64,000 nt of DNA from a virus: positions 32,001 to 96,000 of the IMG/VR virus record IMGVR_UViG_3300013132_000025. One strand, written 5' to 3'. Positions 20,761-57,091 of this stretch are shown here, piece by piece. The notes under the pieces are model-generated. The model was not told the DNA's origin and did not search any database. It saw only the letters and a program-made list of their open reading frames with translations. The first letter of the stretch is position 1; each line of letters starts with the position of its first letter. The translations under genes were made by a program, and so were the position numbers.

Positions 20761-20761
20761 A

Positions 20762-21243: not shown

Positions 21244-21275
21244 TAGGGGGGATGATAAACTACCATCCCCCCTAC
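21244..21275 (-). terminator. Intrinsic terminator after major capsid gene
   Basis: TAGGGGGGATG...CATCCCCCCTA inverted repeat followed by a T-run on the minus strand. Confidence 0.7.
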
Positions 21276-21316
21276 TGTATCAGACTTCTAAAATATTATC
21301 AAGCAATTTACTGAGA

Positions 21317-22844: not shown

Positions 22845-22914
22845 TTAAATCTTCCTCCTAAAAACCTTTTGAATTAAAATTCTCACAAATTGAGAACTGG
22901 TTACTACTTAAAAA

Positions 22915-25389
22915 TTAGTTAAAGATCGCGTCGTCTGGAACGACACCAGCGTTTGAAGATGCTGAAGATTCCTTAACACCCTTGAAGGATGGGAAACCAG
23001 CCAACTTCTTAGCAGGAGCCTCTTTCTTTCCAAGTCCAGCCTCTTTAATCTTTACTAAAGTCTCGTACTTGGCCTCAACAATTGAGGGTTCTTCGTTTTC
23101 TAACTCAGCGACTCTTGCATACTTCATTTCCGCCTCGTTAAGACCTAATTCAACTTCTAGGTCTGCGAGTTTAATTGCAGAAAGCACCGCAGATTCGCGG
23201 CCCTTACCCGGCAATTGTGCGTGATGTTCTGAAATACCCTTAGTACCACCCTCGTCTGAGAACTGAGGCTTTTCAACCTCTTTCTTGACTGGAGCATATT
23301 GCTCAGGCATGGTCTCTGGGTTGTGATTCTTAATATCTTTTGTATTACCCTCGTCGGCGTACTGTGGTTGTTCAACTTCCTTCTTTACACTCTGGTACTG
23401 TTCAGCCTGTGTTCCGGGCTGGTGTTCAGCAATGTCAGAAGACTCGTTGTTTTTGTCACCCTTAAATTGTGGGGTGCTTTCTCCACCGTTCGGTTGAGTA
23501 AGTCCGGGTAATTCACCAAGAGCAACCTTGGTAGCACTTTCTACTGGCTTAGTCTGGTCAGAAATTACCTTTTCGCCCTTTGGACGATCTGACGCAGGCT
23601 TACCGTCGTCTACCAGCGGAGTTGCACTTGAAGAAGCGCTTGATTCCTTTTCAGGAACAGTCCAACCAAGTTCGGCTAGATATTCATCGCCGGGGACTTC
23701 TTCAACATCTGCCGCAAGTGTTATATTTGCTTGTTTAGTATTCATCGTACTATTAACACTCCGTATTTCATTCTTTGATAGTGTTTTTTTCAATCTATCA
23801 ATAAGGCTTTTGGTATCAGACCTGAACTCTTCTTTGTTTTGTTCTTTCTTACGATCAAACGCCTTAGCCTTTGATAAATCTGGATCTGCTAATGGTGCGG
23901 GAGGTTCCTGATATCCACACTTTTCACATCTACCAGACTCATCATCTAAACCACATTCCCCGGCAAGCCCGTTTGGACAAGGTTTATCACCTTTCAATGT
24001 ATCAATCTTGCTAGGTGCAGTAATAGACTCCCCATATTTTTCTGTATTCATACTCGAACTTCTTTCACATGGAGATTTATCAAAATTATCCTCTAAACTT
24101 TGTGTTTCGGTATTCGCTGCTTTTAAGTTATCAGTTCCATTAACGGCAGTTTCTATACCATCTTCGTAGGCTTTCATATATTTATGCATATTTGCATTAT
24201 AAGGCTCTACTCCTAAATATTCTGCCATCTTAACAGAATCAAATTCAGGCACTTCTACGGGGCTATAGTGATAAGATTCTCCAGCATGGAAAGCCCTTTT
24301 AATCAAATCATTTTCTACATATCCAACCTTAGCGATCTTTGCTTGGATACCAACTTGATTTAACCACTCTTTATCTTGTCCGGTAATATTACTAGTGGGA
24401 AGCAATGAGGTCGCCTCCACTTCGGTTTGACCACCATCGTCCCATTGTACCTTGTAAGTTTTAAAAGAATCCCCATATTCGTCAGAATTAAGTTCTTCAA
24501 CATATTTAACAACGCCTTCTTTGCCAGATTCGGCTTCTTTAACTTTTTCTCCAACAGAAAAATCTGTCGTTTCCACCGCAGCGTGCTTAACCACAGGTTC
24601 TGTGAATAAAGCGGTCACATCTGCGGGATCAAATACAGCCGAAATCTCAAAAAAGTTGACATTATAGCAATCTTCATAGGCTAACTTGTCAATGCTTCCA
24701 GTTTTAAACGTTGTTCCTTTTTTCTTTATGTGGCTACAATAATCTTCTACCGTAGCCGCCTTGTGATTACAGATAGAACAAAGAGTATGTTCAACATTAC
24801 ATCCCATAGAAACTGCGTTTACTTTTCCATCAAACAGGGCTTTGGCTAGTTTGGGAAAAGATTTTCCATCAATTTCAAGTAATAATTCAATCCATGTTTC
24901 TGGTTTGTGATTATTTGGGGCACTTGACCAATATGAATCCGAGGCCAGTCTTTGAGGATTTTCAATATGAAGCATTGCATCAACAACAACACCTCTTGCT
25001 CTTTGCGGATCTGAATTATTGTGATCAATAAAAACAGGCCTTCCCACAAAGGTTCTGAACCCGTAATCGCCTTTAGACTTAATTTCAGCACTATCGCCAG
25101 TAAAGGTTAACTTACTTATTCCGCCAGTCTCTGAAGTCTTGGCTAGTTTTGAAACAACTTCTCTGAAATCTGTCTCATCCATTCCAGCAAGTTCGTTGAC
25201 AGGCCAACCATCAAAATTCTTATTGACCCGAGAAGAAATAGCACGAACTTTTACATAAATATACCCATCTCCAGTGCGGTAAGTGTTTTTTGGAATGTGA
25301 TCAAAAGAAGATAGTTTTGCACCACCTTCAATTTTCTCATCGGCACTTTTTACTTCAATTACTTCACAATTGGTATATTTAGTTAGCAT
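22915..25389 (-). CDS. Prohead protease fused to scaffolding region
   Basis: NKNFDGW, FVGRPVFIDHNN..ARGVVVDA, VSMGC..CSIC..CSH, FFEISAVFDPAD; acidic low-complexity C-terminal half. Confidence 0.75.
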   Translation of the reverse strand: MLTKYTNCEVIEVKSADEKIEGGAKLSSFDHIPKNTYRTGDGYIYVKVRAISSRVNKNFDGWPVNELAGMDETDFREVVSKLAKTSETGGISKLTFTGDSAEIKSKGDYGFRTFVGRPVFIDHNNSDPQRARGVVVDAMLHIENPQRLASDSYWSSAPNNHKPETWIELLLEIDGKSFPKLAKALFDGKVNAVSMGCNVEHTLCSICNHKAATVEDYCSHIKKKGTTFKTGSIDKLAYEDCYNVNFFEISAVFDPADVTALFTEPVVKHAAVETTDFSVGEKVKEAESGKEGVVKYVEELNSDEYGDSFKTYKVQWDDGGQTEVEATSLLPTSNITGQDKEWLNQVGIQAKIAKVGYVENDLIKRAFHAGESYHYSPVEVPEFDSVKMAEYLGVEPYNANMHKYMKAYEDGIETAVNGTDNLKAANTETQSLEDNFDKSPCERSSSMNTEKYGESITAPSKIDTLKGDKPCPNGLAGECGLDDESGRCEKCGYQEPPAPLADPDLSKAKAFDRKKEQNKEEFRSDTKSLIDRLKKTLSKNEIRSVNSTMNTKQANITLAADVEEVPGDEYLAELGWTVPEKESSASSSATPLVDDGKPASDRPKGEKVISDQTKPVESATKVALGELPGLTQPNGGESTPQFKGDKNNESSDIAEHQPGTQAEQYQSVKKEVEQPQYADEGNTKDIKNHNPETMPEQYAPVKKEVEKPQFSDEGGTKGISEHHAQLPGKGRESAVLSAIKLADLEVELGLNEAEMKYARVAELENEEPSIVEAKYETLVKIKEAGLGKKEAPAKKLAGFPSFKGVKESSASSNAGVVPDDAIFN

Positions 25390-29231: not shown

Positions 29232-32200
29232 TTATGTTCCCCAAATGCTGTGAATTCTATTATATAAACTCATGAATTCATCTAGCATTTCTGGCGGAAC
29301 TTTTTCTGCATTTGCAATAATAGAACTTAGTAAATACTCTTCAACCCTAAGATTTTCATCTTCAATACCCGTTTCTGCATTTTGTATAGTTATGTCTATA
29401 TCGTTCATTACTTCTTCTAACCATTCAGGATTGTAATGTATTGCATCAGCGGGAACTCCACCATTTACAGCAACCGAGCCTATTAAATTTTTACTTGCCT
29501 TGACATTTTTAGGAGTATCTAAATGAGAATGTTCGTGCATCCAATCTCCAAGCGTACTGCCTTGATGTTGTTCTTGTTCAAAAGGTGGACTTTTAATATT
29601 TTTAAAATCTATTAAGTGAGAATAATTATTGTTATACCCATAAACTGGAAATAAATCTTCATCCGGGGCTAGCGTAGAGGGATCTACTTTAGACATATCA
29701 ACTCTTAACGCAGGTTTTCTTGATTTTGAATAAAAATCTTTTTTTCCTATATAAACATGATCTGGCCTTGATGTAAGCCAGTCATCGTACTCTGCAATCC
29801 CCGTTTGTTCCTTTGGTAAAATTCCATTCTTAAATATAGAATCTATGACGGGGATATGTTCTATCCACCCATCCTTACTTCTTGCTGCCGAAACGTCATG
29901 ATACATATATGGGTCTTCAGCAAACAATTCTTTTGCTTGTTGTTCATTTAATACAGATCTTTTCTTAAAGTTGCGTACTTTGTGTGTTTTTAGCGGTCCA
30001 TATTTACGAACAGACTTCTGATGATCTTTTAGAGATGTTTGAAATTTGGGATGAACTTTTCTTTTATTCTTGTTTGCAATCTTCCATTTAGATTGTCTTT
30101 CCCATTCATTCCATCGAAACGGTTGCTTACCTTTAGCCGCAAACCATTTGTCCCAATATTTTCTATATTCGGGTTTAGGTAAATCATTATGTCTTCCTAA
30201 TATTGGACTATCAAAGCCTGTTGCGCCTCCAGAATCATAGGTTGCGTGAGGTAAGTTTTCGGGGTCTCTCAAAGAATAAATTGCCTTATCATCTCTTCTT
30301 ATTTCTTTATCAAAATAATCTTCCCACGGGAAATCGTGGTGTCTTTCAATTGAAAAGTTTGGGTCTATACTAGCAGCAACATCGCAATATGGTGGTGGCC
30401 ACTCTCCTTCTGGAGTCATACAATTGCTCATCAAAGTTCCCTCTCTATGAGCATCACCTATTGTATTTAATTTGCGAATAGTCCACCCATCGTCAAATGT
30501 GTGAACAATATCCGAAGTATCTGTATAATTTTCATCTAAATCTTTAGCATCTTGCAAAAGACGAGTTTTTGTTTTTCTTGCAATCTTCCATTTTCCAATT
30601 TTACTTAACTCAAAATCTTCTTTATTGCTTGGTAATGCTGGATTTGCATTTCCCTCTGCATCAGAAAAGAGATAAATGCCATTGAGGGGATACCCAGACC
30701 GATCAGCGGCTTCTTGCCAATAATCTCGGTAATGTTCGTGTGGGTGCTGGAAATCTTCTACTCCACCAGCAGTTTCTGTGTAGCCAAATCTTTCATACTC
30801 GCTTGGAGTTGAAAGGTGCAACAATTCATTAGTTTCTGGATTATAAAGACCGCGCCAACCTTGAGATGGCTCAAATATTTTATATAAACTTTTTGGAGTT
30901 TCCATTTCTCCGTGGTAAGTTGTCCATTTCGGGCCGACAACCATATCGCCCTCTGGGGTTATCCCTGCGGCATGAAAACCTTCCACCCAATGAGAACGCT
31001 TCTTCCATTTAGATTCTTTTGTTTCCCACCCATTGTAAAACGCATTGTCTTCGAAACCCTTTACTTTTTCTTTAACAGGAATTCCTATCATATGAGGAGG
31101 AAAATGTGGTGGAATATAAAGATTTCCTAAAGCATCTGTTTGATTTCCTTGCCAATATGCAGGCAGTTCTTTAAAGTGTGTTTTGCCGTAGCCGCGAATA
31201 CCTCTAGCGGGAATCCATTCCATTCCTAATTTTTTTGCAACTTGAACTCTATGATTTCCTTCTGCAATATAGGCCGTATTAGTATCTTTATTAAATTCAA
31301 CAATAATTGGTTCTAGAAATCCATGTTCGGAGATATGTTTTGTAAGATTATTAATATTTTCTCTTTCATAATCTTCTTTGCCTCTTTCAAAGTCCAACAT
31401 TTGCATTGCAACATCTACAGGAATTTCTTCAACAGCCTTTGTTTCAAAGTATCGGGAGGGTTCTGTGTTTTCTAAATCCCAAAGGCCTATTGCAATTTTT
31501 TTCCACTTAGATTCTTTATATCCAACAGGTTGAATAATTAAATCGTATGGGTGTTTGCCATGATCAAAGTGAAAGGACCAACGCTTTTTCTCTTTATATA
31601 ATTTAAGATCTTCTAAAGCGTGCCCATCTTGTTCTTTTGCTTCTGAATCAATCTTTTTATTGTCGTGGGGATTCTTTTTATTTATATATCCATTTTTAAG
31701 TTGCTTTAGCCATTTGACGGTTTGCTTTTTAACTTCTTCCCACGTTCCTGTTGTAATAATATCGTGGCCCAACTCTCCATCAAGGACGGCTTCCCATGCA
31801 TCTTTTTTAGATACTTTCCATTTAGATTCTTTAAATGAAGCCCATTGATCCCAAGGATGGTTAATGCCGTATTGATCAAAAAAAACTTTCCAATATGGGA
31901 CGTATTCATCTTTTATATCAGAATTGTGTCTTCCTAAAGGTGGATTTTCTGGATTTTCTGGATCATACCGATATTCATCATCTTGCCAATCGGCATTATA
32001 CGTTGCGTGAGGTAAATTATTTTCATCTCTTAATGAAAAGAAATGACCTTCATTACCTATTGAAGATTTAAATTCTTCTTTCCAAAACTCGGGATCTTCT
32101 TCAATTTCCGGGGAATCATTCCAGCCTCTATATGGTCCAAAATCACTATTACAACTTAAACAGTTGTCCATTAACTCACCTTCTCGGTGCATATCTCCAA

Positions 32201-35200
32201 TAGTTTTTAATTCTTTAATCGTCCATCCATTCTCAAAAGTGTGAACAATTTCAGAAGTATCTTCTGGAAGTTGAGAAGCGCGTTCTAATCTTTTCTTTTT
32301 TGTTTCTCCCGATGTTTTTGGTTGACCGAATGTTTTCCATAAATCAGCAACTCTCTTCATATCTTCAATAATTCCTTCTTTAAGCAAAGGATCGTTTGGA
32401 ATGATATGCAAATCTGTAAGATTTCCCCAATCGGGATATTTTTCTGAAATGTAATCAAATTGATGTAAAATATCTTCTTTGTCTGTGTCGGTAAGGTTAA
32501 ATTCTTTTTCTTGTCCATTTTGTATGTTTTTTACATAATTAGACAAAGGTTGGTCAAGATCTTCTGGGAGTAACCAATCCGCTAATTCTAATAGGGCATC
32601 GTTCCAGAATTTTTCAATTGCTTGATCTTTTAATAATCTTTCTGTTTTTGCTCTCTGCTCTGGATTTCCAGTTGTTGGTTTAACCAAATTAAAATCTTCT
32701 TTTTTATTTCGGTTCAGCCACCCTAAATTTTTGTCATCTTCTGGGTTATAGTTTGGTTTTGAATAAAGTAAAGAAAAATCATTAATTGGAATTTGAGACT
32801 TTTCTGCGGCTTTTTTCCAAGCGTTTTGATGAAGTTCTGGATTCACCGCCTCATGTGTAAAGAGATATTCGGGTCTTTCATTAAATTTTCCTTCAATAGA
32901 ATTAGCATATTCCGTTGGAGAGGTCATATGAATCAATTCGCCAGTATCGTGATTGTAAAGGCCACGATAGACTGGGTAGCCCCCAGTTTGCCAGTGATTA
33001 ACTTTCCAATTAACGTCTTCATCGTGATATTCCGCTTTTTCGCCACCTTTGGGAACAACTTCCATTTCACCATTTTGATTTATGATTGCGGAGTGAAATC
33101 CTGAAATCCAATGTGATTTTTTCTTCCACTTAGACTCTTTTGGCATAAACTCTTCTGGGTCAGTTAAATCAAAGTCTTCTTTGTCATTTAACGGATTACT
33201 CCAGTGCTTGGGCGGTGGTTCGTCTTCCCCACCTTCCGCTTGTTTGCCGTACAGTAATTTAAAGTCATTAACTGGGATATTTGACTGTTTAGCAGCATCT
33301 CTCCAGAAGGTTTCATGTTCTAAAGGATTGACTGCCTCTTCTTTATCTAAGTATTCCCAACCTGTGCCGCGAAGTTTTTCATGCTCTTTTGGAGAAGTCA
33401 TGTGAATCAACTCTCCAGTTTTGTGATTATAGAGGCCGCGATATTCAGGACGCCCACCGATATCCCAATGAGTTTTATACCAAGGAGAGTCGTCTTCTTC
33501 TATAAAAAAATTCCCTTCACTATCTACAGTTTTCTTCATAGTTGGAGAAGCGACTTCCATTTCCCCATGCTGGTTAATAATTGCTGCATGAAATCCATTT
33601 ATCCAATGCGCGGTTTTTATATTAAAATCTGTTTCATCATTCTGTTGAGAATAGTTTTTTCTCGGCTGATTTCTATCAGCATACATAAATCTTACAGAAC
33701 TAACCGGAATTCCCGCTTCTTTTGCAGCATTCATCCATACATCTTTGTGTCCTTCTGGATTAACTGCCTCTTCTTCAAAAGGATATTCTGGCCTATTGTT
33801 TTCTGCAAAATTATACCATTCACCCTCTCCTCCAGTAATTTTATGATATTCCTCTGGAGAAGTCATATGAATAAGATCTTTAGTCTCTGGGTTATATAAG
33901 CCGCGCCAATTTGGAAATCCTCCAATATCCCAGTGAGTGTCATTCCATTCTTTTGTTGGCTCATCATCATCTTCGTCATCATAATAAATACGATCAGGAT
34001 CAGATTGTGCAATTTCCATCTGACCATGCTGGTTGATGATTGCAGCATTGTATCCCCTTATCCAGTGAGAAGTTTTTACACTTCCAGTTTTAGTATCATA
34101 ACCCCCATGCTCTCTTTCCCAAGAATTTAAAGGACGTTTTCTTTCATAAATTCTTCTTGCCCTCTGGACTTCTTCTGGCATTTCTAAATCGGCAATATTT
34201 AGATCTTCTAAATGACCTGTTTGATTATTGAGAACACGAATAGAATCTAGTTCTATTCCGGTTTGTTCTGCTAACTGTTTCCAAAATGCTTCCATCCTGT
34301 CTCGCTCATCCTGATCCAAACTCTTAAAGTTGTAATCAGTTTCATCCCAAAAGTCTGGATGAGACATATGGATAAAATCTTTTGTTACTGGATTATAAAG
34401 GCCTCTTGCTGTATGATGATTATAATAGTGAGTGCGACTATCTTTATCTGCAACAGATTCTCTCATGGATTTTGTGCCAAGATCGTTTATATATTCAGCA
34501 GTAACGCCGCCATGAGTTAGTTTGTCATTGAAGCCCACATCCATATGCCACACATCTGTTTCTGGGTCTCTAAGAGCGACGGCTGCGTGATATCCATCTA
34601 CCCAGTAAGATAGTTTAGACATATAATCTAGGGCCATTACAACGGCTGCTTTTTCAGAAAACCCACTTTTTATTAAAGATTTTTCTATTTTTTCTTGAAA
34701 ATCTATTTTTTCTGAAAAAGAACGTTTTTCCGTTAAAAACTTAGAATTAGCAAATTTTATTTCGATATCGTCTTCTCCATCCCAATTGTCCCAATCTTTT
34801 TGCTTTGGAGAAGAGTTATCAAATAATTGTAATTGTTGCGGTTTTTCTTTTTCATCAATAAGATTTACAAGTTCTGGATCTATTTTTTCATTAAACATAA
34901 CAACATCTTTATCTTCAGCATCTTTAGGGTGATACATTAATGAAAAACGTTTAATTGGAATTTCAGATTTAGAATTTTTAGCAGCATTTAACCAAGTTTG
35001 TTGATGTTCTTCCAACGAGGAATCAAAATTATTTTTTCCTGTAATATATTCAGGAATAACAATCTTTCCATTTTTTAATCTTTTTGCCCATTCTTTTTTT
35101 ACTTTTTCATATTCTGATGGGTTTGTCATATGGATTAGATGACCTGTTGTTGGATTATAAAGACCACGGTGGGTGTATGGAGCAAAAACATCTCCATGGA

Positions 35201-38200
35201 TAACTCTTTCATTTTTTCCATATTTCATAACCGGATAACCTAACGGGCTATCATAGATAACAGCAGAATGATATCCATCTAAATAATTAGATTTTTTCTC
35301 AGGCAGACCCTTACTACTTTGCCCTTTAACGTATTCACAGGCTTGGGCGCGAATCATCCCTTCCGGTGGTTCTATTGATCCATTGCAAATGCCTTGCATA
35401 TAGCGGTACTGCGCTTTACTTCTTGCCGGGGCTTCTTTTTTTATCCACTTAGATTTTTTATTCCACGGAACGGGATCACTATCTAATACTATTTTGAACC
35501 CGGTTGATGGTATTCCACTTTTTTCAATTCCCTCTTTCCAGTCGTTCATAATTGGTTGAAAATTTTGTTTAATATCATAGTGCCATCCGGTTGATCCAAA
35601 GTTATTCCAATCTGGGTGAGTAAGGTGTTCTATTACTCCAGTTGGAGGATGATATATCCCTCTCATAACGTGGCCTAGATATCCATTACCAAAAATTCCA
35701 TCGTCGCCCTGCAATTCATCATGTGTCTTTTTTATTTCTGGATTTTCATCAAGCACTTGTTGCATTAATTGATAATGCTCATACAGATTGCCCTTATCGT
35801 CCCACCCACCTTCTCCATTTGCTGTACCATCATCTGTTTTAGCAATCCACTCTCCCGTTATTGGATCCCTGACATTAACAATTGCAACTTTATCATTCCA
35901 ATACTCTTCATAATCTTCGTTTTTATTGTTTGCTATTTCCCATTTAGACTGTTTTAAACTAGGGTCTATGGTGTATCCACCAGTCATTCCGGGGTTCAAA
36001 CTAGTTAGATTTTGTTGAGGACTTGTGTGATATAATTTAATAGAAGAAATTTTCCACTTAGATTCTACAGATGGCAATGGCAATCTTCTTTTTGAACCAT
36101 GATCTTCATAATATTTATCAATAATAGATTTAACATCTTCATCAACATCTTTATTTGCCATAGAAAAGTTAATCCAACGAGGTTTATAGACTGGATCAGA
36201 TTTTTCAATAAGAGGATATTTTCTCATGAAATCGGCAAATTTGTTTGCATCTATTTCCATAGGATGTTCAAGATAGTTTTCTTTAAATTTTCTTTCTACT
36301 TCTTCGTCAGAAAGCCCAGAGATATCTGTAGGATCAAAGTAAGAATCTCTTAACTCTTGTGTAAATCGGCCCTCTTGATCCTGATAGGCATGTTGAAGTT
36401 CGTGCCACAGGGCTTCGTTAGCAGACTCAGCAGAGATTAGGGGATTGATGTGAATACTTCCTGCGTTATTTGAGGTAGCCGCTTCGTGGGTGCCCAAAGG
36501 AGTTCTCCTCCAATGTCTCATACTTATGTCATCAGTTGGGGCACTCTTGGGGTCAACTGTAAAAACATTATATCTTCCCTTGACTGGGAAATCTGGATGA
36601 TTAAGAACCTTTTCAAGATTTTTGTAATTTAGTTTCCAGCGGTGTCCTCTTACCTCTGGGTTCCATTTATATCTTTCTTCTAGATATTCTTGAGTTGGCT
36701 CTTCTGATTTTTCATAACCTTTTGCATATTCTTCTGCTTTTTCTGCTGGAGGAACAGCAATCTTCCATTTAGAAAGCGAAACAAAATCTTGTTTTTGAGC
36801 CTTTTCTTTTAACTTTTGATTAATAATATGAGCGTTAATTGGCTTAGGCAATTCATCTTTTATCCATCTCAACACTGCTAATGAAAGTCTAGGATATCTT
36901 TTATTAAAATTATTTACAGTTTCTTGCTTATAACGACTGGGTGATATTGCGTGACCCTTCTCATCTAAGTGACTTAAATATATCTCTGCACCAGCGTCAA
37001 AATAACCATCATATGTATTATCTCTTGGTTCATTATAATGAATACTATTTAAATATGTTGGATATCTATGTTCTCCATAATCTGCTTCTAAAGATTCTTC
37101 TGAATGCCCCGCAATCCTGTCATCGTTTGAATGGTACTCAAAAGAATTTGGTCCATTAAGAACATATTGCATTCCATACACAATTTGATTAGTTTCTGGA
37201 TCATAAAAATGAATAGTATGGTAAGTTGTATGGTCAGAGAAACTATTATGTCCAAAATCTTTAACTTCAGTTAGGGAGCGAGTATCTGAATCGCTCCCCA
37301 TTCTTGCTATTGGAATAACACCATATCTAGAAAATTCAGGAACAATATCGTTAATAATTCTGTAATTTTGTGGAATTTTATATTGTTCTATATTTCTTAC
37401 ATCTATAGGTTTTGCTCTTTCTGTTGAAACAATAACCCAAGACTGTTTTTCCATTTGATTTATTAGTTTAGAGTAGAAACCCCAGCCCCCAATAGGATCT
37501 TTATATGTATCTGGTTGAGGGTTGTTCTTACGACGAACTTTTTTCCATTTCTTGCCGTTAACAATAATCTCTTCATCTTCATGCTCTTGAGATGTATCTT
37601 CATTTTGAATAGATTCAAAAATTGTTTCAGCAACGGGAGTGCCATCTGTGTGTTGGCGATACATCCTATTAGCATCTTGACTTTCTGATATTTTCCATTT
37701 TGAATTTGTTAAAAGACCTTTTCTTTTTGCAACTTCTTCTATTTTTTTATTTGCAAATTCAGCAGAATATGGAGCAGGAAGATTTTTTTGAATCCATGTA
37801 AGGATTCTTCTTCCGGCATTAGGATAAAGATTCTGTATTTCATACATCCTTTCAAAATCTTCATTTGAAAGGTCATGTTTATCTTTTCCAAACTCATGCA
37901 AATAAAAAGAGTCTCCTCTAAAGTAACGTTTTGGTCCTTTACTATAACCAATATCTACCATTGCAGGATGATGCATTTTAATTGCATTGATATAGGTGCC
38001 ACCTTCTTTTACCTCTCCAGAATGGGTTTCTCCGTTTCCACCCTTATATTCAAGACTAAATGGGATATCTCCCCTTTCAGGATCCCAAAAAGCAATGATA
38101 TGTGATGGAGAATTTGTTGACATTGGATTTATTGGTTCATTATAAGAAACATCATGAGGAGCATTTATTGTTCTTGTTGCGTTTGCGGAAGCAACTGGAA

Positions 38201-38882
38201 TCAGTCCCGTGCCCTTAAAATGATCTACCATAGAAGAAATTACAGCAAAAGATTCTGGAATATCTATATTAGAAATCTTTCGCTTAGATTGCTTAAATGG
38301 CCCATAAAGTGCCCTCTGCATCAATTGTGCCTGAGTAGGGATTGGCGTATCTTTGTTTGCGGCTGCCAACCCTTCATGCAATCCCGGAATAAACCCAACT
38401 CTTTGATCGGTAAATCTTCCACGATGAATAGCATATCCTGTTTGCCCAAGGCACTCTGTTGCTAGAGCCTTTTGCGCGTGAGGACTTGATAGAGCAAAAT
38501 GAGTTGAGCAGGCATCATTCTCTCCATGCCAGCCAAAGTCGCCATCAGTTGCTGCGTGACCAAAAACATCATGAACAATCCTGAAGTTAATATTATCTTG
38601 GGGAGTCCAAACTGGATGATCTGCGTTTGCTGTAGAAACAACAAAATTTCTGTTGTCTCGGATATCACGAATCATATCCGCAGAAGTATTATAAGGTTCT
38701 GGATTATCTGTTTCCGTTATGTTTAGGTGTTGCCTAATATAATCAGCATGTTTTTTTGACTCGTCTGCCAATTGTTTCCAAGCGTGAACCGCTTTGGGAT
38801 CATACTTTGGCAAAGCGTCATATCCAACAGCCACATCTTCAATATTGTGGCGAGAGTGATCCATATTCCATTGCATAAACAA
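29232..38882 (-). CDS. Giant 3216-aa multidomain (polyvalent) protein, probable virion-internal polyprotein
   Basis: HDVFGH domain, HELQH zincin, seven RG(L/I)Y(N/H) repeats, two PcfJ-like domains (EG.LM.NC..SLRD..NLPHAT), ParB/Srx-like (EGNHR), C-terminal ADP-ribosyltransferase-like (MYH..SIFKNGILP..VYIG); recurring SKWK linkers. Confidence 0.8.
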   Translation of the reverse strand: MFMQWNMDHSRHNIEDVAVGYDALPKYDPKAVHAWKQLADESKKHADYIRQHLNITETDNPEPYNTSADMIRDIRDNRNFVVSTANADHPVWTPQDNINFRIVHDVFGHAATDGDFGWHGENDACSTHFALSSPHAQKALATECLGQTGYAIHRGRFTDQRVGFIPGLHEGLAAANKDTPIPTQAQLMQRALYGPFKQSKRKISNIDIPESFAVISSMVDHFKGTGLIPVASANATRTINAPHDVSYNEPINPMSTNSPSHIIAFWDPERGDIPFSLEYKGGNGETHSGEVKEGGTYINAIKMHHPAMVDIGYSKGPKRYFRGDSFYLHEFGKDKHDLSNEDFERMYEIQNLYPNAGRRILTWIQKNLPAPYSAEFANKKIEEVAKRKGLLTNSKWKISESQDANRMYRQHTDGTPVAETIFESIQNEDTSQEHEDEEIIVNGKKWKKVRRKNNPQPDTYKDPIGGWGFYSKLINQMEKQSWVIVSTERAKPIDVRNIEQYKIPQNYRIINDIVPEFSRYGVIPIARMGSDSDTRSLTEVKDFGHNSFSDHTTYHTIHFYDPETNQIVYGMQYVLNGPNSFEYHSNDDRIAGHSEESLEADYGEHRYPTYLNSIHYNEPRDNTYDGYFDAGAEIYLSHLDEKGHAISPSRYKQETVNNFNKRYPRLSLAVLRWIKDELPKPINAHIINQKLKEKAQKQDFVSLSKWKIAVPPAEKAEEYAKGYEKSEEPTQEYLEERYKWNPEVRGHRWKLNYKNLEKVLNHPDFPVKGRYNVFTVDPKSAPTDDISMRHWRRTPLGTHEAATSNNAGSIHINPLISAESANEALWHELQHAYQDQEGRFTQELRDSYFDPTDISGLSDEEVERKFKENYLEHPMEIDANKFADFMRKYPLIEKSDPVYKPRWINFSMANKDVDEDVKSIIDKYYEDHGSKRRLPLPSVESKWKISSIKLYHTSPQQNLTSLNPGMTGGYTIDPSLKQSKWEIANNKNEDYEEYWNDKVAIVNVRDPITGEWIAKTDDGTANGEGGWDDKGNLYEHYQLMQQVLDENPEIKKTHDELQGDDGIFGNGYLGHVMRGIYHPPTGVIEHLTHPDWNNFGSTGWHYDIKQNFQPIMNDWKEGIEKSGIPSTGFKIVLDSDPVPWNKKSKWIKKEAPARSKAQYRYMQGICNGSIEPPEGMIRAQACEYVKGQSSKGLPEKKSNYLDGYHSAVIYDSPLGYPVMKYGKNERVIHGDVFAPYTHRGLYNPTTGHLIHMTNPSEYEKVKKEWAKRLKNGKIVIPEYITGKNNFDSSLEEHQQTWLNAAKNSKSEIPIKRFSLMYHPKDAEDKDVVMFNEKIDPELVNLIDEKEKPQQLQLFDNSSPKQKDWDNWDGEDDIEIKFANSKFLTEKRSFSEKIDFQEKIEKSLIKSGFSEKAAVVMALDYMSKLSYWVDGYHAAVALRDPETDVWHMDVGFNDKLTHGGVTAEYINDLGTKSMRESVADKDSRTHYYNHHTARGLYNPVTKDFIHMSHPDFWDETDYNFKSLDQDERDRMEAFWKQLAEQTGIELDSIRVLNNQTGHLEDLNIADLEMPEEVQRARRIYERKRPLNSWEREHGGYDTKTGSVKTSHWIRGYNAAIINQHGQMEIAQSDPDRIYYDDEDDDEPTKEWNDTHWDIGGFPNWRGLYNPETKDLIHMTSPEEYHKITGGEGEWYNFAENNRPEYPFEEEAVNPEGHKDVWMNAAKEAGIPVSSVRFMYADRNQPRKNYSQQNDETDFNIKTAHWINGFHAAIINQHGEMEVASPTMKKTVDSEGNFFIEEDDSPWYKTHWDIGGRPEYRGLYNHKTGELIHMTSPKEHEKLRGTGWEYLDKEEAVNPLEHETFWRDAAKQSNIPVNDFKLLYGKQAEGGEDEPPPKHWSNPLNDKEDFDLTDPEEFMPKESKWKKKSHWISGFHSAIINQNGEMEVVPKGGEKAEYHDEDVNWKVNHWQTGGYPVYRGLYNHDTGELIHMTSPTEYANSIEGKFNERPEYLFTHEAVNPELHQNAWKKAAEKSQIPINDFSLLYSKPNYNPEDDKNLGWLNRNKKEDFNLVKPTTGNPEQRAKTERLLKDQAIEKFWNDALLELADWLLPEDLDQPLSNYVKNIQNGQEKEFNLTDTDKEDILHQFDYISEKYPDWGNLTDLHIIPNDPLLKEGIIEDMKRVADLWKTFGQPKTSGETKKKRLERASQLPEDTSEIVHTFENGWTIKELKTIGDMHREGELMDNCLSCNSDFGPYRGWNDSPEIEEDPEFWKEEFKSSIGNEGHFFSLRDENNLPHATYNADWQDDEYRYDPENPENPPLGRHNSDIKDEYVPYWKVFFDQYGINHPWDQWASFKESKWKVSKKDAWEAVLDGELGHDIITTGTWEEVKKQTVKWLKQLKNGYINKKNPHDNKKIDSEAKEQDGHALEDLKLYKEKKRWSFHFDHGKHPYDLIIQPVGYKESKWKKIAIGLWDLENTEPSRYFETKAVEEIPVDVAMQMLDFERGKEDYERENINNLTKHISEHGFLEPIIVEFNKDTNTAYIAEGNHRVQVAKKLGMEWIPARGIRGYGKTHFKELPAYWQGNQTDALGNLYIPPHFPPHMIGIPVKEKVKGFEDNAFYNGWETKESKWKKRSHWVEGFHAAGITPEGDMVVGPKWTTYHGEMETPKSLYKIFEPSQGWRGLYNPETNELLHLSTPSEYERFGYTETAGGVEDFQHPHEHYRDYWQEAADRSGYPLNGIYLFSDAEGNANPALPSNKEDFELSKIGKWKIARKTKTRLLQDAKDLDENYTDTSDIVHTFDDGWTIRKLNTIGDAHREGTLMSNCMTPEGEWPPPYCDVAASIDPNFSIERHHDFPWEDYFDKEIRRDDKAIYSLRDPENLPHATYDSGGATGFDSPILGRHNDLPKPEYRKYWDKWFAAKGKQPFRWNEWERQSKWKIANKNKRKVHPKFQTSLKDHQKSVRKYGPLKTHKVRNFKKRSVLNEQQAKELFAEDPYMYHDVSAARSKDGWIEHIPVIDSIFKNGILPKEQTGIAEYDDWLTSRPDHVYIGKKDFYSKSRKPALRVDMSKVDPSTLAPDEDLFPVYGYNNNYSHLIDFKNIKSPPFEQEQHQGSTLGDWMHEHSHLDTPKNVKASKNLIGSVAVNGGVPADAIHYNPEWLEEVMNDIDITIQNAETGIEDENLRVEEYLLSSIIANAEKVPPEMLDEFMSLYNRIHSIWGT

Positions 38883-54276: not shown

Positions 54277-56448
54277 CTACTGCTCGTTTACACGGTCCCT
54301 CTGTGCAACGACGGCTTGGAGAATGTCATACACCTCTCCCTCGTCATAGACCTCGGAGAGAGCCTGCCTCTGCTCATCTGTCACCTCGTCCTCACCCACA
54401 ACGATAAGGTCGTCCTCGTCGCAGCCACCCCAACTGCCGTCTGCTGCGCTCATCCAGATAATCCGACGACCCATGACTAGGCCTCCCGGATAAACGTAGA
54501 GAGCGTGTCAATCAGAGCCTCGCGCTCCTCGGCGGTGTCGGGAAGGGGAATCACAATCGTTCCCACGTTCGTCTTGGGGCCACCAACGACGTTGGACTCC
54601 ACGATGATGTTTAGACGACCACCGACGATGGGGAAAACCCCAACCTCGTAGATACGAACGAAGTCGGTGGTGCCGTGGTCGCGCTCAACCTTATAGGTGT
54701 AAGGCTTGGTCTGCTCCTCTGCTGCCTTGCCAATCATCTTGCCTCCTTGTATGTCTCGTTGTAAAAGTCCACCATAATCCCGCGATACTTCCGCTCAATG
54801 ATGGTGCTTGCAACATCATACACCACCTCAACGAAAGAATCGCTAAGGGCGTTTGTACGGTCAAACCAGAACGGAAGGTACTCGTCCATCAGAACGTCCA
54901 ACAGTTGCGTCGGGAGAGGAAAGAACAGGTCGTAGTAAGGGCGCTGACCGTCCCAATACTCCCAAGCCGTCTTAGCGAACACACGACCGACATACTCAGG
55001 GTCATTTCCATTTCCGTAGATGGCAACCCCATGAATGCTCTGGTCAAACGGGTCCACATAAGGCGAAAAGTTTATACCAGCATCGCATTCCACGGTCTCC
55101 TGTAAGGTCTCGCGGAAGTCCTGCTCTACGAACCTCTCGGTCTTGATACGCTGCTCGGCATCACACATTAGTCCCACCCATTTACACGGGCCGACTGCTT
55201 GGCCTGACGGCGCTCGGTGCGACGGCTCTTGTTGCCATGAACCTGAGAGCGAGGAACAGCAATCCCTGTGTGACCAGAGATGCCAAGTTCCTGCCTCATG
55301 GCTCGGCGTTGCTTGTTGGTAAGGTTTCTCATCTTATCTCCCTTGATTGATGCCTAGGCAGCATACATCATAAGACTGACTAGAACAAGTGCCTGTTTAT
55401 TTGATAAACTCATTCACAAGTTCGTTGAGGTCAATCTCGTCAATCCAATAACCGTACGAGCCTAGATACTGACCAGCAGCGTCGTAAACAGATGCACTAC
55501 TGCCACCTCCATCGAACTAAACGAGTTCCAAAACCTGTTGAGGGTCGTCCTCGGAATGAACGTAAACGTGAGTAGCCTCAAACTCAGAGTAAGTAAAAGC
55601 CATTGTCTTTCTCCTTTATCCGTACACCACACTACCGAAAGCGGCAACCTGCACAATGCAGTCAGCCGCATCGCCGTCAATCATGCCGGGGTCGTTCTCC
55701 TGCACGGCACGACGAATGTAGCCGGTGATGGTGTTATTTGCCATATGACTGTTCTCATCCAGAAACTTCTGGATGGCCTCGGTGATGTTGGTGGCGTTGA
55801 TGGTGTAAACATTGACCTCGCCACTACCCTCATCACGCTCAACAATGTCGGTGACAGTAACCTGCTGCCAGCGTTCGAAACCATCCGGGGTCTCAGCCTT
55901 CTTAGCAACAAGGTTATTCAGTTCCGCCCAATAGTAGCAGACACCATAAGAGCCATCGAAAGCACTCACAAGAATGCAATCAACCATAGCCTCGGTGATA
56001 GGAAGTTGCGTGGTGACAACGCCAACAACCTTAGAGTTGTCGTACATCTCAGCCTCGGCTTCCAGCATCTCCCTCACATATGGGTCAGACATTGTGTTTC
56101 TCCTTTCGTAGTTCATCTGAATAGATGATATCAAACAGACCAACTCAGCACAAGAAAGTGTTTATACGACTAGGCGCTAAACATCTGATGGTAATGCTCC
56201 TCGGGGGTGAGGATGTTTAGGCCGTAACGAAAATGACCGGGACCAAACCAGATTGGGTTACGGTACTCATCACTCATACGATGCCGCCGATAGTCATTCC
56301 AGATAGTCGCCGGGTGACTCCACAACTCGCAAACGTAATCCTCAATGTCATGGTAGTTTACACTATCCATAGAGATGATGTATTCCTCTACGAAATCCCA
56401 GAACAACTCATCAGACCTACCATCATATCCGCCAGCAACGTAAGCCAC
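54277..56448 (-). other. Small hypothetical ORFs (54277-54474, 54477-54737, 54734-~55170, 55616-56092, 56170-56448 and shorter ones)
   Basis: Packed minus-strand ORFs with RBS; no recognised function. Confidence 0.55.
55360..55399 (-). promoter_or_regulatory. Sigma70-type promoter with upstream TAAACA
   Basis: TAAACA-N5-TTGTTC-N17-TATGCT; leader GCCTAGGCA shared with the 50529 promoter. Confidence 0.7.
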
Positions 56449-56482
56449 AATCTCTCCTCTCCTATAAACTTGTTGATAAAAG

Positions 56483-56582
56483 CACCCCTAGCGGGAGTCG
56501 AACCCGCGATAAACCTCCGCATAAACATCACAAGCGTCCTTGTGAATGTCCCGGCGTCGTTGCCATCTAGACCATTAGGGGC
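56483..56582 (-). tRNA. Atypical tRNA-like RNA (Glu-like body, anticodon arm replaced by a long hairpin, no encoded CCA)
   Basis: Acceptor GCCCCTA/TAGGGGT plus discriminator G; D arm GTC-TAGATGGCAAC-GAC; perfect T arm GCGGG-TTCGACT-CCCGC; central arm ACAT-TCACAAG-GACG-CTTGTGA-TGT. Confidence 0.7.
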
Positions 56583-56891
56583 CACATTATAGACGGTTCC
56601 ACACAGGGGCTTGATGCTCCTAAAAACAATGCCTCTGCCGTCACCGACAACCGAACCCTTAGTTAGTTTATACACAGATGGCCCCGAGCGACGGCTAGTT
56701 CTTAGATGGTGCCGAATAACACCACGCTCATCTATGTATGTTTAGACTGCTTATCATTTATGGCTCTCGCGCTCATCGTCCCACAATGGTTGATGAGATT
56801 TCCCGACCTACCAATCGGTTTCTTACGGAGATTCCTCCACCCCACTAGGTCAAAGGTGGTAGCCCTCGCCTAGTCGGTCGTGAAAGCCGTT
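56583..56891 (-). ncRNA. Putative structured non-coding RNA between hammerhead and tRNA-like element
   Basis: No credible ORF; several stems and two hairpin loops with perfect complementarity (CUACCA/UGGUAG). Confidence 0.6.
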
Positions 56892-56936
56892 GATGCCCGT
56901 AGGCATTTCGTCCTCTAAGGACTCATCAGAACGGCT
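56885..56936 (-). ncRNA. Type I hammerhead ribozyme
   Basis: AGCCGUU-CUGAUGA-GUCC-UUAGA-GGAC-GAAA-UGCC-UACG-GGCA-UC-AACGGCU: complete catalytic core, three perfect stems, AUC cleavage triplet. Confidence 0.92.
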
Positions 56937-56941: not shown

Positions 56942-57091
56942 CTACAGTTCTATCGTGGAAGCACCATCAGTCTGCAACTCCATGACCCACCCCTCACGCC
57001 ACTCATTTATAGCACAAGCCTCACCAAAAGACGCATAAGGACCGAAAGCGGTATATCCATCTGAAAGATTACCAGCGAGAAAGACAAACAT
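56942..57091 (-). CDS. Small hypothetical protein directly upstream of the hammerhead
   Basis: Hand translation, 49 aa MFVFLAGNLSDGYTAFGPYASFGEAC...; GAGGAG RBS; stop 5 nt before ribozyme stem I. Confidence 0.6.
   Translation of the reverse strand: MFVFLAGNLSDGYTAFGPYASFGEACAINEWREGWVMELQTDGASTIEL

What the first reader, a model, noticed from the sequence alone, without database searches (positions are those of the whole stretch)
56483..56936. Hammerhead ribozyme + structured RNA + tRNA mimic: a possible self-excising non-coding RNA cassette
Seen: on the minus strand, 5 nt after a stop codon, a textbook type I hammerhead (predicted cut between 56892 and 56891), then ~305 nt with no credible ORF, then a tRNA-like structure with intact acceptor stem, D arm and T arm but no normal anticodon loop, then the RBS of the next gene. 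Established: hammerheads leave a 5'-OH on the downstream product, and RNase P recognises the acceptor stem/T arm of tRNA-like folds without needing the anticodon. Inference: the ribozyme defines the 5' end and host RNase P the 3' end of a discrete ~305-nt RNA cut out of an early polycistronic transcript, conceptually like MALAT1/mascRNA processing. Alternatively the product is a ~410-nt RNA with a tRNA-like 3' cap. I do not recognise this arrangement as a described phage system.
Basis: partly seen in the sequence, partly recalled or inferred. Interest (0 to 1): 0.92.

Follow-up and report, generated by a model that had tools for sequence, protein, structure and literature searches.

The report
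Ribozyme- and tRNA-framed phage RNA cassette
A freshwater phage carries a self-cutting hammerhead ribozyme, a very strongly conserved folded RNA and a tRNA look-alike as one inherited unit, which looks like a built-in way to cut a stable non-coding RNA out of a longer message.

Summary
On the minus strand, 56885-56936 is a complete type I hammerhead with its cut between 56892 and 56891. A full descriptor finds it once in the window and in 0 of 200 shuffles. Five distinct versions in related contigs keep the core and compensate changes in stems I and III. At 56484-56582 lies a tRNA-derived fold with a 7-bp acceptor stem, a 3-bp D stem and a canonical T arm. A long hairpin capped by an invariant GACG loop stands in place of the anticodon arm. 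Rfam's tRNA model and default ARAGORN both reject it.

New findings:
- The RNA just after the cut is a helix-closed five-way junction. Its 86-nt core is 96.5-98.8% identical between phages whose flanking genes are 59-78% identical.
- Two viral contigs keep the ribozyme, linker and tRNA-like but carry an unrelated folded 171-nt cargo.
- Other relatives swap the tRNA-like for a short acceptor/T-arm element.
- Three part-specific scans of IMG/VR return the same four contigs.
- Metatranscriptome contigs of 175-186 nt lie on the cargo. This is a weak hint of a discrete RNA shorter than the predicted 305 nt.

Verdict: a modular ribozyme/tRNA-like-framed ncRNA cassette. Cargo function is unknown and processing is untested.

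The parts
56942..57091 (-). Upstream 49-aa ORF. Its TAG stop at 56944-56942 lies 5 nt before hammerhead stem I.
   Evidence: Homologues of 53-71% aa identity sit before the cassette in L097/L098 and L101/L104.
56885..56936 (-). Type I hammerhead ribozyme. Stem I is 56936-56930 with 56891-56885, the core CUGAUGA is 56929-56923, stem II is 56922-56910, GAAA is 56909-56906 and stem III is 56906-56893. The predicted cut follows C 56892.
   Evidence: All 16 pairs are paired in 5 of 5 sequences. Three pairs have changes on both sides, N7 is U or C, and the loops vary.
56762..56891 (-). Cargo A, domain 1: a five-way junction (P1-P5). Closing helix P1 pairs 56888-56879 with 56771-56762 and reuses GGCU of hammerhead stem I's 3' strand.
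   Evidence: P1 has 9 pairs, 100% paired in 5 of 5 sequences, with 3 one-sided changes. The P5 hairpin has 3 pairs changed on both sides.
56797..56882 (-). Near-invariant 86-nt core of cargo A (P2, P3, GUAAGAAA joiner, P4, GAAAU joiner).
   Evidence: 96.5-98.8% nt identity to four homologues, while flanking genes are 59-78% identical.
56682..56756 (-). Extra segment of about 73 nt with a hairpin. It is present in the window but absent from L098, L099, L101, L104 and L119.
   Evidence: The laid RNA contigs and a DNA contig of run X3 run through it.
56655..56679 (-). AU-rich, stop-codon-rich linker.
   Evidence: It is conserved in place in all versions, including L119.
56592..56654 (-). Second hairpin (D2). 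The 5' lead UCGGUUGUCGGU is invariant, as is the closing stem GACGG (56642-56638) / CCGUC (56596-56592). The interior is variable.
   Evidence: In L098 and L119 its 3' strand plus the spacer reads TTGACT-16-TATAAT. The same letters stand in L101 (read from the alignment). The window has only TATAAT.
56483..56582 (-). tRNA-derived element. The acceptor stem pairs 56582-56576 with 56490-56484. The D arm is 56573-56555. The anticodon-like long hairpin with its GACG loop is 56554-56517. The T arm is 56507-56491. The discriminator is G 56483. No CCA is encoded.
   Evidence: Of 28 pairs, 99.1% of cells are paired in 4 sequences. Three pairs in the long hairpin changed on both sides.
56170..56463 (-). 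RBS (56463-56454) and the next gene (92 aa, GTG at 56448). This gene is not found by tblastn in L097, L098, L099, L101 or L104.

Best explanation
This is a modular, self-processing cassette that makes a discrete non-coding RNA from inside a run of small phage genes.

1. As RNA polymerase passes the end of the upstream ORF, the 52-nt hammerhead is complete more than 100 nt before the partner strand of P1 is made. It can therefore fold and cut first, after C 56892. This leaves a 2',3'-cyclic phosphate on the upstream mRNA and a 5'-OH on the cargo.
2. The released 3' strand of stem I then re-pairs into the cargo's closing helix P1. That buries the new 5' end and makes re-ligation unlikely.
3. On the 3' side, the AU-rich linker, the D2 hairpin and the tRNA-derived element separate the cargo from the downstream message. 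The acceptor/T-arm module is the handle for host tRNA-processing enzymes: RNase P at 56582/56583, and RNase Z or exonucleases at its 3' end.
4. The cargo is then trimmed back towards its structured core.
5. The cargo is the functional product. It most likely binds a conserved protein or RNA of host or phage, which would explain an almost invariant 86-nt core.

Shown: the sequence features, the conservation, the covariation and the modularity. Inferred: cleavage, the order of folding, the enzymes involved, the 3' end and the target.
For: Hammerhead:
- All defining core positions and all three stems are present.
- A full descriptor finds 1 site in the window and 0 in 200 shuffles.
- Across 5 aligned versions, 16 of 16 pairs are always paired. 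Stem I changes G-C to G-U to A-U at one pair and U-A to C-G at another. Stem III changes U-A to C-G. N7 is U or C and both loops vary. No shuffle out of 500 reaches the observed covariation.
- The sixth version (L119) scores 28.5 bits, E 8e-5, against Rfam Hammerhead_1.

Unit:
- Flanks are unalignable or 59-78% identical. The block from stem I to the acceptor 3' strand is conserved.
- Scans for the tRNA-like, for D2 and for the hammerhead each return the same 4 of 4 contigs.

Cargo:
- P1 is fully paired in 5 of 5 sequences.
- P5 has 3 compensated pairs.
- The fold has z = -2.95.
- The core is 96.5-98.8% identical.

Modularity:
- Compared with L098, L119/L120 keep the hammerhead (85% identity), the linker (82%) and the tRNA-like (91%), against a global-alignment figure of 47% for the cargo.
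- Their cargo is an unrelated 171-nt sequence. Model R1 matches only positions 5-52 there.
- That cargo is also folded (z = -3.5), and its closing helix again uses the stem I 3' strand.
- In L119 the cassette sits in a different gene order.

3' handle:
- L099 carries a non-homologous element of about 67 nt that keeps only a 7-bp acceptor stem and a T arm.
- A DNA contig of run X3 joins 56488 to 56588 with 60 other letters (table 5).
- RNase P RNA cleaves acceptor-stem/T-stem/T-loop model hairpins at the canonical site (PMC11143913, passages).
- The discriminator varies (G, A, U, U).

Expression (weak hint): RNA-library contigs from 3 runs of 2 studies, 185, 175 and 186 nt long in all, lie on 56683-56862, 56692-56862 and 56688-56874. 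They stop within 10 nt of each other at 56683-56692 with no loose end there, while a DNA contig runs on across that place.
Against: - No cleavage, RNA end or enzyme has been tested.
- Rfam's gathering scores are not reached: window Hammerhead_3 scores 21.9 against 48.5, and L119 Hammerhead_1 scores 28.5 against 34. There are no hits at gathering.
- No loop II/stem I tertiary contact is evident, so cutting could be slow.
- Only 6 distinct cassette sequences from one narrow phage group are known.
- Most two-sided changes separate the window from the rest, so independent events are few.
- The acceptor, D and T stems never vary except G1-U72 to G1-C72. Their pairing therefore has no covariation support.
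- The RNA runs are contigs of depth 5-8, and DNA can be present in RNA libraries. Contig ends can also be assembly breaks at strain-variable sites.
- An 11-of-12 promoter match ends 6 nt before the tRNA-like in L098 and L119. The tRNA-like therefore need not come from the same transcript.
- In L098 the frame of the upstream gene's homologue runs into the hammerhead and stops in loop II. Translation could interfere with folding there.
- The cargo's function is unknown. Rfam gives no match, and no antisense target stands out in the phage genome.
Confidence: 0.5

Rival explanations
1. There are two units, not one. The hammerhead releases the cargo RNA, whose 3' end is set in the AU-rich linker by a general endonuclease. 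The tRNA-like is made separately from a promoter in the 3' strand of D2. It then acts on its own, for example as a decoy or competitor for enzymes that recognise tRNA, or as the 5' cap of the downstream message.
For: - TTGACT-16-TATAAT (11 of 12) ends 6 nt before G1 of the tRNA-like in L098 and L119. The same letters stand in L101.
- The RNA contigs stop at 56683-56692, well before D2 (weak hint).
- The tRNA-like is 91-92% identical between phages whose shared neighbouring protein is 36% identical. This suggests constraint on the tRNA-like itself.
- Its GACG loop is invariant while the stem below covaries.
Against: - The window and L104 have no -35 match. In the window, TATAAT is only 3 nt from G1, so a start there would truncate the acceptor stem.
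- L099 and the X3 variant replace the long-hairpin tRNA-like with a minimal acceptor/T-arm element. That fits a processing handle better than a specific decoy.
- The three parts are never found apart in IMG/VR within the reach of exact patterns.
Confidence: 0.2
2. The hammerhead does ordinary intercistronic mRNA processing. It separates the upstream message from a long structured 5' leader that regulates the downstream gene or genes in cis, through stability, translation or antitermination. The tRNA-like is a decayed copy of a phage tRNA gene with no role of its own.
For: - Hammerheads flanking genes in prophage polycistronic RNAs are documented (PMC3088659, passages).
- The cassette always lies between same-strand ORFs, with an RBS soon after it.
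- The T arm is 16 of 17 identical to the phage's own tRNA-Gly and tRNA-Glu.
Against: - The downstream gene differs between versions: the 92-aa gene in the window, another small ORF in L098, and the 175-aa homologue directly in L101/L104. In L119 the gene order differs altogether. The RNA is nonetheless kept.
- A decaying pseudogene would not stay 91-92% identical with compensated stem changes.
- The cargo can be exchanged for an unrelated folded RNA between the same frames.
Confidence: 0.17
3. The cassette is a small mobile or recombination-prone element. The ribozyme and the tRNA-like are its ends, and the cargo is a passenger.
For: - The limits of similarity coincide with the first base of stem I and the end of the tRNA-like.
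- The same frames occur in a different gene order in L119.
- The cargo, the interior of D2 and the 3' module are each exchanged independently.
Against: - No integrase, reverse transcriptase, transposase or homing endonuclease was recognised among the eleven flanking ORFs tested.
- No terminal repeats were looked for.
- Only two genomic contexts are known.
Confidence: 0.08
4. The match is a chance motif or an artefact.
For: The linear core pattern alone is expected about once per window. Rfam's gathering scores are not reached.
Against: - The full descriptor gives 0 hits in 200 shuffles.
- The structure is conserved with compensatory changes in 5 of 5 aligned versions from independent contigs.
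Confidence: 0.01

Closest known systems
Type I hammerhead ribozymes in phage and prophage polycistronic transcripts (Perreault et al. 2011, PMC3088659; passages read)
   Same: Same catalytic core and three-helix junction. It lies intergenic between same-strand phage genes. The proposed role is cutting a long transcript into pieces.
   Different: Here the ribozyme is fixed to a non-coding cargo and a tRNA-like 3' module. Its stem I 3' strand doubles as the 5' strand of the cargo's closing helix.
MALAT1/mascRNA 3'-end formation (PMC8457004; title and start of abstract seen)
   Same: A tRNA-like fold downstream of a non-coding RNA would let RNase P set that RNA's 3' end.
   Different: That system is eukaryotic and nuclear, with a triple-helix element protecting the 3' end. 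Here a linker and a hairpin of about 100 nt separate cargo and tRNA-like, and the only expression hint ends before them.
Plant mitochondrial t-elements (PMC1920247; title and start of abstract seen)
   Same: tRNA-like structures inside longer transcripts serve as signals for 5' and 3' end formation.
   Different: Those flank mRNAs in organelles, have no ribozyme partner and are not modular cassettes.
Theta (HDV-like) ribozymes next to phage tRNAs (Kienbeck et al. 2024, PMC10879173; abstract and passages)
   Same: A small self-cleaving ribozyme is coupled to tRNA-type elements in tailed phages, and a processing role is proposed.
   Different: Theta ribozymes sit directly 3' of real tRNAs and trim trailers. 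Here a hammerhead sits about 300-400 nt 5' of a non-decoding tRNA-like, with a cargo RNA between.
Small stable RNAs co-transcribed and co-processed with the tRNA cluster of phage T4 (recalled; only the T4 tRNA precursors are covered by PMC11143913)
   Same: Phage non-tRNA stable RNAs are matured together with tRNA-type substrates by host enzymes.
   Different: T4 has no ribozyme there. The cargos here show no sequence or Rfam relation to anything.
Synthetic ribozyme-guide-ribozyme and tRNA-guide arrays (recalled from general knowledge, no call)
   Same: The design logic is the same: a self-cleaving ribozyme on the 5' side and a tRNA-type handle on the 3' side frame an exchangeable RNA.
   Different: Those are engineered. 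This would be a natural counterpart.
tmRNA and bacterial Y RNA (YrlA)
   Same: Both contain tRNA-like modules. The T arm here matches the tmRNA model locally (18.5 bits).
   Different: - tmRNA: the acceptor stem here is formed locally rather than by the two ends of the whole RNA. There is no tag frame, and ARAGORN finds no tmRNA.
- YrlA: it scores 14.5 against 69 bits. No Ro60/TROVE gene is in the record.

Membership tests
Hammerhead ribozyme, type I (Rfam RF00163, clan CL00010) | Conserved core C3 U4 G5 A6 N7 G8 A9 ... G12 A13 A14 | tested here: met
   CUGAUGA at 56929-56923 and GAAA at 56909-56906. Kept in all 6 distinct versions, with N7 = U or C.
Hammerhead ribozyme, type I (Rfam RF00163, clan CL00010) | Three helices around the core, with stems II and III closed by loops and stem I open (type I) | tested here: met
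   7, 4 and 5 pairs, 100% paired in 5 of 5 sequences, with compensatory changes in stems I and III. L119 has a 5-bp stem I.
Hammerhead ribozyme, type I (Rfam RF00163, clan CL00010) | A15.1-U16.1 pair, G10.1-C11.1 pair, and H17 (not G) at the cleavage site | tested here: met
   A 56906 pairs with U 56893, G 56922 pairs with C 56910, and C 56892 is H17.
Hammerhead ribozyme, type I (Rfam RF00163, clan CL00010) | Score at or above Rfam's gathering threshold | tested here: not met
   No hit at gathering. The best hit in the window is Hammerhead_3 at 21.9 against 48.5 bits. In L119, Hammerhead_1 scores 28.5 against 34 bits, E 7.9e-5.
Hammerhead ribozyme, type I (Rfam RF00163, clan CL00010) | Mg2+-dependent self-cleavage | not testable with these tools
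   Needs in vitro transcription.
tRNA (Rfam RF00005) | 7-bp acceptor stem and 5-bp T stem with a 7-nt T loop | tested here: met
   The T arm is 16 of 17 identical to the phage's tRNA-Gly and tRNA-Glu.
tRNA (Rfam RF00005) | 5-bp anticodon stem with a 7-nt loop and U33 | tested here: not met
   A long bulged hairpin with a 4-nt GACG loop stands there. The supposed anticodon positions covary as stem pairs (CACAAG/CUUGUG against CAUGGG/CCCAUG).
tRNA (Rfam RF00005) | Detected by tRNA finders or by the Rfam gathering score (29 bits) | tested here: not met
   ARAGORN at default settings finds none in the window. Rfam finds none in the window or in L098, L099, L101 or L104.
tmRNA (Rfam RF00023) | Acceptor stem formed by the 5' and 3' ends of the whole RNA, a tag reading frame and pseudoknots | tested here: not met
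   Only the T arm matches (18.5 against 47 bits). ARAGORN's tmRNA search of the whole record finds none. The acceptor stem is local.
Bacterial Y RNA (YrlA, RF02553) with Ro60 | tRNA-like module whose ends form a Ro60-binding stem, with an rsr (TROVE) gene nearby | tested here: not met
   YrlA scores 14.5 against 69 bits in L119. No TROVE match is in the 129,640-bp record, which is 82% complete.
tRNA-like 3'-end processing signals (MALAT1/mascRNA, plant mitochondrial t-elements) | RNase P cut at the 5' side of the tRNA-like creates the 3' end of the upstream RNA | not testable with these tools
   The substrate features are present: a 12-bp acceptor/T stack and a T loop, with U at -1 in L098, L101 and L104 and G at -1 in the window. 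No cleavage data exist.

The most novel reading that the evidence does not exclude
Freshwater phages carry a natural 'plug-and-play' RNA expression cassette. A hammerhead forms the 5' frame, and a linker, hairpin and tRNA-derived handle form the 3' frame. Together they mature interchangeable cargo RNAs. At least two unrelated folded cargos exist, and neither matches any Rfam family. One has an almost invariant 86-nt core and may accumulate as a discrete RNA in environmental metatranscriptomes. The frames move between phage genomes as a unit. The cargos would be new classes of phage effector RNAs acting on a conserved host target.
Probability: 0.35. Interest if true: 0.82.

Novelty: new variant of a known kind. 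Interest (0 to 1): 0.68.

Why it matters
The biological roles of most bacterial and phage hammerheads remain undefined (PMC6765202, passages). This case gives one a concrete and testable job: setting the 5' end of a specific, strongly conserved non-coding RNA.

The exchangeable cargo between conserved frames suggests a general way in which phages express structured RNAs from within operons. It parallels, in nature, the ribozyme/tRNA-flanked guide arrays built by synthetic biologists.

Cargo A is better conserved than the surrounding proteins, and cargo B is equally unassigned. Both are candidates for new RNA classes, and both come with simple experiments: cleavage assays, Northern blots and pull-downs.

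Tried and rejected
- **Rfam.** No family reached gathering in the window or in 11 loci other than ordinary tRNAs. In E-value mode only weak hammerhead, T-arm, plastid-ycf2, ceN54 and YrlA matches appeared. No known family explains cargo A or B.
- **tmRNA, Y RNA, RtcB-linked circle.** ARAGORN found no tmRNA. No TROVE or RtcB gene is in the record, which is 82% complete.
- **Spliced tRNA.** ARAGORN's 'tRNA-Val(cac) with intron' is rejected because the 'anticodon' covaries as a stem and position 33 is not U in relatives.
- **Coding.** Rejected on the indel pattern.
- **Cultured phages.** blastn of 801 nt of the window and of the L119 cassette found no match in 50,697 records.
- **Relatives' records, BLAST.** Two of 22 had a match. 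Only G005 is the element. G006's match is the T arm of a tRNA.
- **Relatives' records, covariance models.** R1 matched 1 of 16 records. R2 matched 3 of 9, and the extra hits were the phages' own tRNAs.
- **Protein route to loci.** The scan with the 175-aa neighbour found nothing.
- **Metagenome scan.** Three of 8 stretches were homologues. L100, L102, L103, L105 and L106 were chance.
- **Species-genome scan.** One chance hit in a Smithella MAG.
- **Hammerhead-to-T-arm pattern scan.** Of 50 stretches, only 2 pass the strict descriptor.
- **Antisense targets in the phage genome.** Nothing beyond T-arm matches.
- **Neighbouring proteins.** No Pfam or NCBIfam family; only phrog_2355 of unknown function.
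- **175-aa neighbour.** It has 14 homologues, all hypothetical. The model has pLDDT 77.5. Foldseek against PDB gave no match at E <= 0.001.
- **Sequencing runs, uncovered parts.** The laid RNA contigs do not cover the hammerhead, 56875-56891, D2, the tRNA-like or the flanking ORFs. X22 has an 8-letter loose end at 56862. X24's 126-nt contig on 56853-56889 runs on unlike the stretch at both sides and was ignored.
- **Sequencing runs, not laid.** About 19 DNA runs labelled freshwater, drinking water, wastewater or aquatic hold 0.11-0.18 of the words.
- **Literature.** Searches found no paper in the held library describing a hammerhead plus tRNA-like cassette in phages. The library lacks most subscription papers. 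Supplementary files were not opened, as the task states they are closed. The hammerhead lists of PMC3088659 may bear on this claim.
Full report
**Setting.** The window is bases 32001-96000 of a 129,640-bp IMG/VR virus record, estimated 82% complete. It encodes a tail sheath, a major head protein and other myovirus proteins. Its head protein is about 55% identical to those of Mycobacterium, Gordonia and Rhodococcus myophages such as Myrna and ScottMcG. G+C is 42%. The two runs that hold the whole 801-nt stretch laid here, and may be its source, are labelled lake water metagenome. The record has 11 ordinary tRNA genes at 17.8-22.9 kb on the other strand, outside the window. ARAGORN finds none inside the window.

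**The hammerhead.** Read on the minus strand, the 49-aa ORF 56942-57091 ends with TAG. After five T's comes AGCCGUU-CUGAUGA-GUCC(UUAGA)GGAC-GAAA-UGCC(UACG)GGCA-UC/AACGGCU. Every defining position of a hammerhead is present:
- C3-A9 and G12-A14 of the core;
- the G10.1-C11.1 and A15.1-U16.1 pairs;
- C17 at the cleavage site.

The linear core alone is expected about once per window. A descriptor that also requires the stems finds this one site and none in 200 dinucleotide-preserving shuffles. A looser version finds one site in the whole record. Rfam does not report it at gathering. In E-value mode the best match is the circularly permuted Hammerhead_3 model at 21.9 bits. A relative's copy scores 28.5 bits (E 8e-5, threshold 34) against Hammerhead_1.

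**Relatives.**
- BLAST of the region against 22 records of head-protein relatives found the element in one, G005. From the position of the head gene in each contig, I infer that the other close relatives end before this region.
- Exact-pattern scans added a second, identical viral contig (L097).
- They also added three metagenome contigs, L099, L101 and L104 (3 of 8 stretches).
- Later they added two viral contigs, L119 and L120, which are 99.97% identical over 6.2 kb.

That makes six distinct cassette sequences. None was found in 50,697 deposited phage records. The species-genome scan gave one chance hit. Fifteen more distant relatives' records, four of them complete, gave nothing with a covariance model.

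**Selection on the hammerhead.** In the five-sequence alignment A3 all 16 hammerhead pairs are paired in all sequences.
- One stem I pair runs G-C, G-U, A-U.
- Another stem I pair changes U-A to C-G.
- One stem III pair changes U-A to C-G.
- N7 is U or C, and both loops vary.

No shuffle out of 500 reaches the observed covariation. The ribozyme is only 79% identical between the window and its relatives, yet every change is neutral or compensated. I take the ribozyme as real. Its activity is inferred.

**What follows the cut.** The 309 nt are not one domain.

- *Domain 1.* First comes a 130-nt domain (56891-56762) closed by helix P1. P1 pairs 56888-56879 with 56771-56762. Inside it are four hairpins, P2-P5.
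  - P1 is fully paired in 5 of 5 sequences, with three one-sided G-U changes.
  - P5 has three pairs changed on both sides.
  - P1's 5' strand overlaps the 3' strand of hammerhead stem I (GGCU), so the two helices exclude each other. The ribozyme is complete more than 100 nt before P1's partner is transcribed, so cutting first and re-pairing afterwards is the natural order (inference).
  - The 86-nt core (56882-56797) is 96.5-98.8% identical to the relatives. The flanking genes are 59-78% identical in DNA and 45-72% in protein.
- *Extra segment.* Next the window has about 73 nt with a hairpin that five relatives lack.
- *Linker.* Then comes an AU-rich, stop-rich linker.
- *Hairpin D2.* D2 has an invariant 5' lead and closing stem GACGG/CCGUC but a variable interior.
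- *tRNA-like.* Last, after a spacer reading UAUAAU plus 3-6 nt, comes the tRNA-like.

**The tRNA-like.** It has a 7-bp acceptor stem (G1-U72, or G1-C72 in L104 and L119) and a 3-bp D stem with a GG-containing loop. The T arm is canonical. In place of the anticodon arm stands a long bulged hairpin with an invariant GACG loop.
- The upper six pairs of that hairpin change from CACAAG/CUUGUG to CAUGGG/CCCAUG in L104. The bases ARAGORN reads as an anticodon are therefore stem pairs.
- The other stems never vary, so they carry no covariation evidence.
- Model R2 built from it also hits the phage's own tRNA-Arg, tRNA-Gly and tRNA-Glu at 27-30 bits. The T arm is 16 of 17 identical to those of tRNA-Gly and tRNA-Glu. 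It is therefore tRNA-derived.
- No CCA is encoded, but the phage's real tRNAs lack it too.
- The discriminator varies (G, A, U, U). This argues against aminoacylation identity.

It is not a tRNA by Rfam. It is not a tmRNA and not a YrlA-type Y RNA.

**Modularity.** This is the main new result.
- L119/L120 have the same hammerhead, linker and tRNA-like as L098 (85%, 82% and 91% identity). Between the stem I 3' strand and the linker they carry an unrelated 171-nt sequence. A global alignment gives 47% identity, and model R1 matches only the ribozyme.
- This cargo B is also strongly folded (z = -3.5). Its predicted closing helix again uses the stem I 3' strand.
- In L119 the cassette follows the homologue of the 175-aa protein (36% identity). 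In the window it precedes that gene, and the order of the neighbours is reversed.
- Conversely, L099 keeps hammerhead, cargo A, linker and D2. It replaces the tRNA-like with a non-homologous element of about 67 nt that retains only a 7-bp acceptor stem and a T arm.
- A DNA contig of run X3 joins 56488 to 56588 with 60 other letters.
- Scans specific for the tRNA-like, for D2 and for the hammerhead each return the same four contigs. Within the reach of exact patterns in IMG/VR, the parts do not occur apart.

**Expression.** Only contigs were available. Three RNA-library runs from two studies each have one short contig of 185, 175 or 186 nt. These lie on 56683-56862, 56692-56862 and 56688-56874. 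All their differences from the window fall in 56714-56759. They stop within 10 nt of each other at 56683-56692 without loose ends, while a DNA contig continues across. By the tool's own standard this is a weak hint of an RNA end. If true, the product is cargo A plus the extra segment, roughly 190-210 nt from the ribozyme cut. That is shorter than the 305 nt bounded by RNase P. DNA in RNA libraries and assembly breaks remain possible.

**Mechanism and rivals.**
- *Best reading (0.5).* This is a self-processing cassette. The hammerhead sets a 5'-OH end, which P1 then buries. The acceptor/T-arm handle recruits tRNA-processing enzymes that detach the cargo region from the downstream message. RNase P RNA is known to cut acceptor-stem/T-stem/T-loop model hairpins (PMC11143913, passages). 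Trimming through the AU-rich linker then yields the stable cargo.
- *Main rival (0.2).* The tRNA-like is a separate unit. TTGACT-16-TATAAT (11 of 12) ends 6 nt before it in L098 and L119, and the same letters stand in L101. The window and L104 lack the -35, and the window's spacing is wrong.
- *Cis-acting leader with a decayed tRNA (0.17).* This is weakened by the changing downstream genes and by the exchangeable cargo.
- *Mobile element (0.08).* No mobility gene was recognised among the ORFs tested.

**Known comparisons.**
- Hammerheads between phage genes are known (PMC3088659). Their function in bacteria and phages is described as open (PMC6765202).
- tRNA-like processing signals are known from MALAT1/mascRNA and from plant mitochondrial t-elements (listings).
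- HDV-like theta ribozymes sit 3' of phage tRNAs (PMC10879173).
- Six literature searches found no description of a hammerhead, cargo and tRNA-like cassette. Supplements were not available.

Noticed in passing
L003 (127-kb viral contig), minus strand, about 5866-5911: A type I hammerhead passes the strict descriptor. Its predicted cut falls exactly at position +1 of a tRNA-Tyr gene, with stem I formed with the tRNA's own 5' part. The ribozyme could replace RNase P in making a tRNA 5' end.
   Followed up: partly
L018 (55-kb viral contig), minus strand, about 10550-10981: A strict-descriptor hammerhead is followed by about 400 nt of apparently structured RNA with no Rfam hit. That RNA ends in a T-arm-like GGGUUCGAUUCC, and no tRNA is called. 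The layout resembles the cassette studied here but the sequence is unrelated.
   Followed up: partly
L008/L025, L011, L035, L009, L040: Further hammerhead-like motifs lie inside phage tRNA arrays. They were seen by eye or as weak R1 hits and fail the strict descriptor.
   Followed up: no
L119 4041-4211 (-): Cargo B is a 171-nt folded RNA (z = -3.5) with no Rfam match. It was found only in L119/L120 by an exact 28-mer scan.
   Followed up: partly
window 55616-56143 (-): This 175-aa protein (phrog_2355, unknown function) lies next to the cassette in both gene orders: downstream in the window, L098, L101 and L104, and upstream in L119. It has 14 homologues, all hypothetical, one of them in a Saccharothrix genome. 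The AlphaFold model (pLDDT 77.5) has no PDB fold match at E <= 0.001.
   Followed up: yes
L098 2859-2886 (-) and L119 3927-3954 (-): A sigma-70-like TTGACT-16-TATAAT match (11 of 12) lies in the 3' strand of D2, and its -10 hexamer ends 6 nt before the tRNA-like. L119 also has TTGAAA-17-TATGAT just upstream of its hammerhead.
   Followed up: partly
L098 3127-3339 (-): The reading frame that matches the window's 49-aa ORF runs on into the hammerhead and stops at a UGA in loop II. In the window the stop lies 5 nt before stem I. Translation and ribozyme folding may be coupled.
   Followed up: no
G000 contig 17835-22926 (+), outside the window: A cluster of 11 tRNA genes, none with an encoded CCA.
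   Followed up: no
window 29232-38882 (-): A 3216-aa ORF with a ParB-like stretch near residues 2500-2560 and an N-terminal match to phrog_3170.
   Followed up: no
window 56631-56651 with 56549-56559 (-): RNAalifold pairs UUCGGUUGUCG of the D2 lead with CGACGCCGGG of the tRNA-like (10 pairs, 3 of them G-U). That fold would compete with the cloverleaf. Both strands are invariant among the sequences that have them, so covariation gives no test. L099 keeps the lead without the partner.
   Followed up: no
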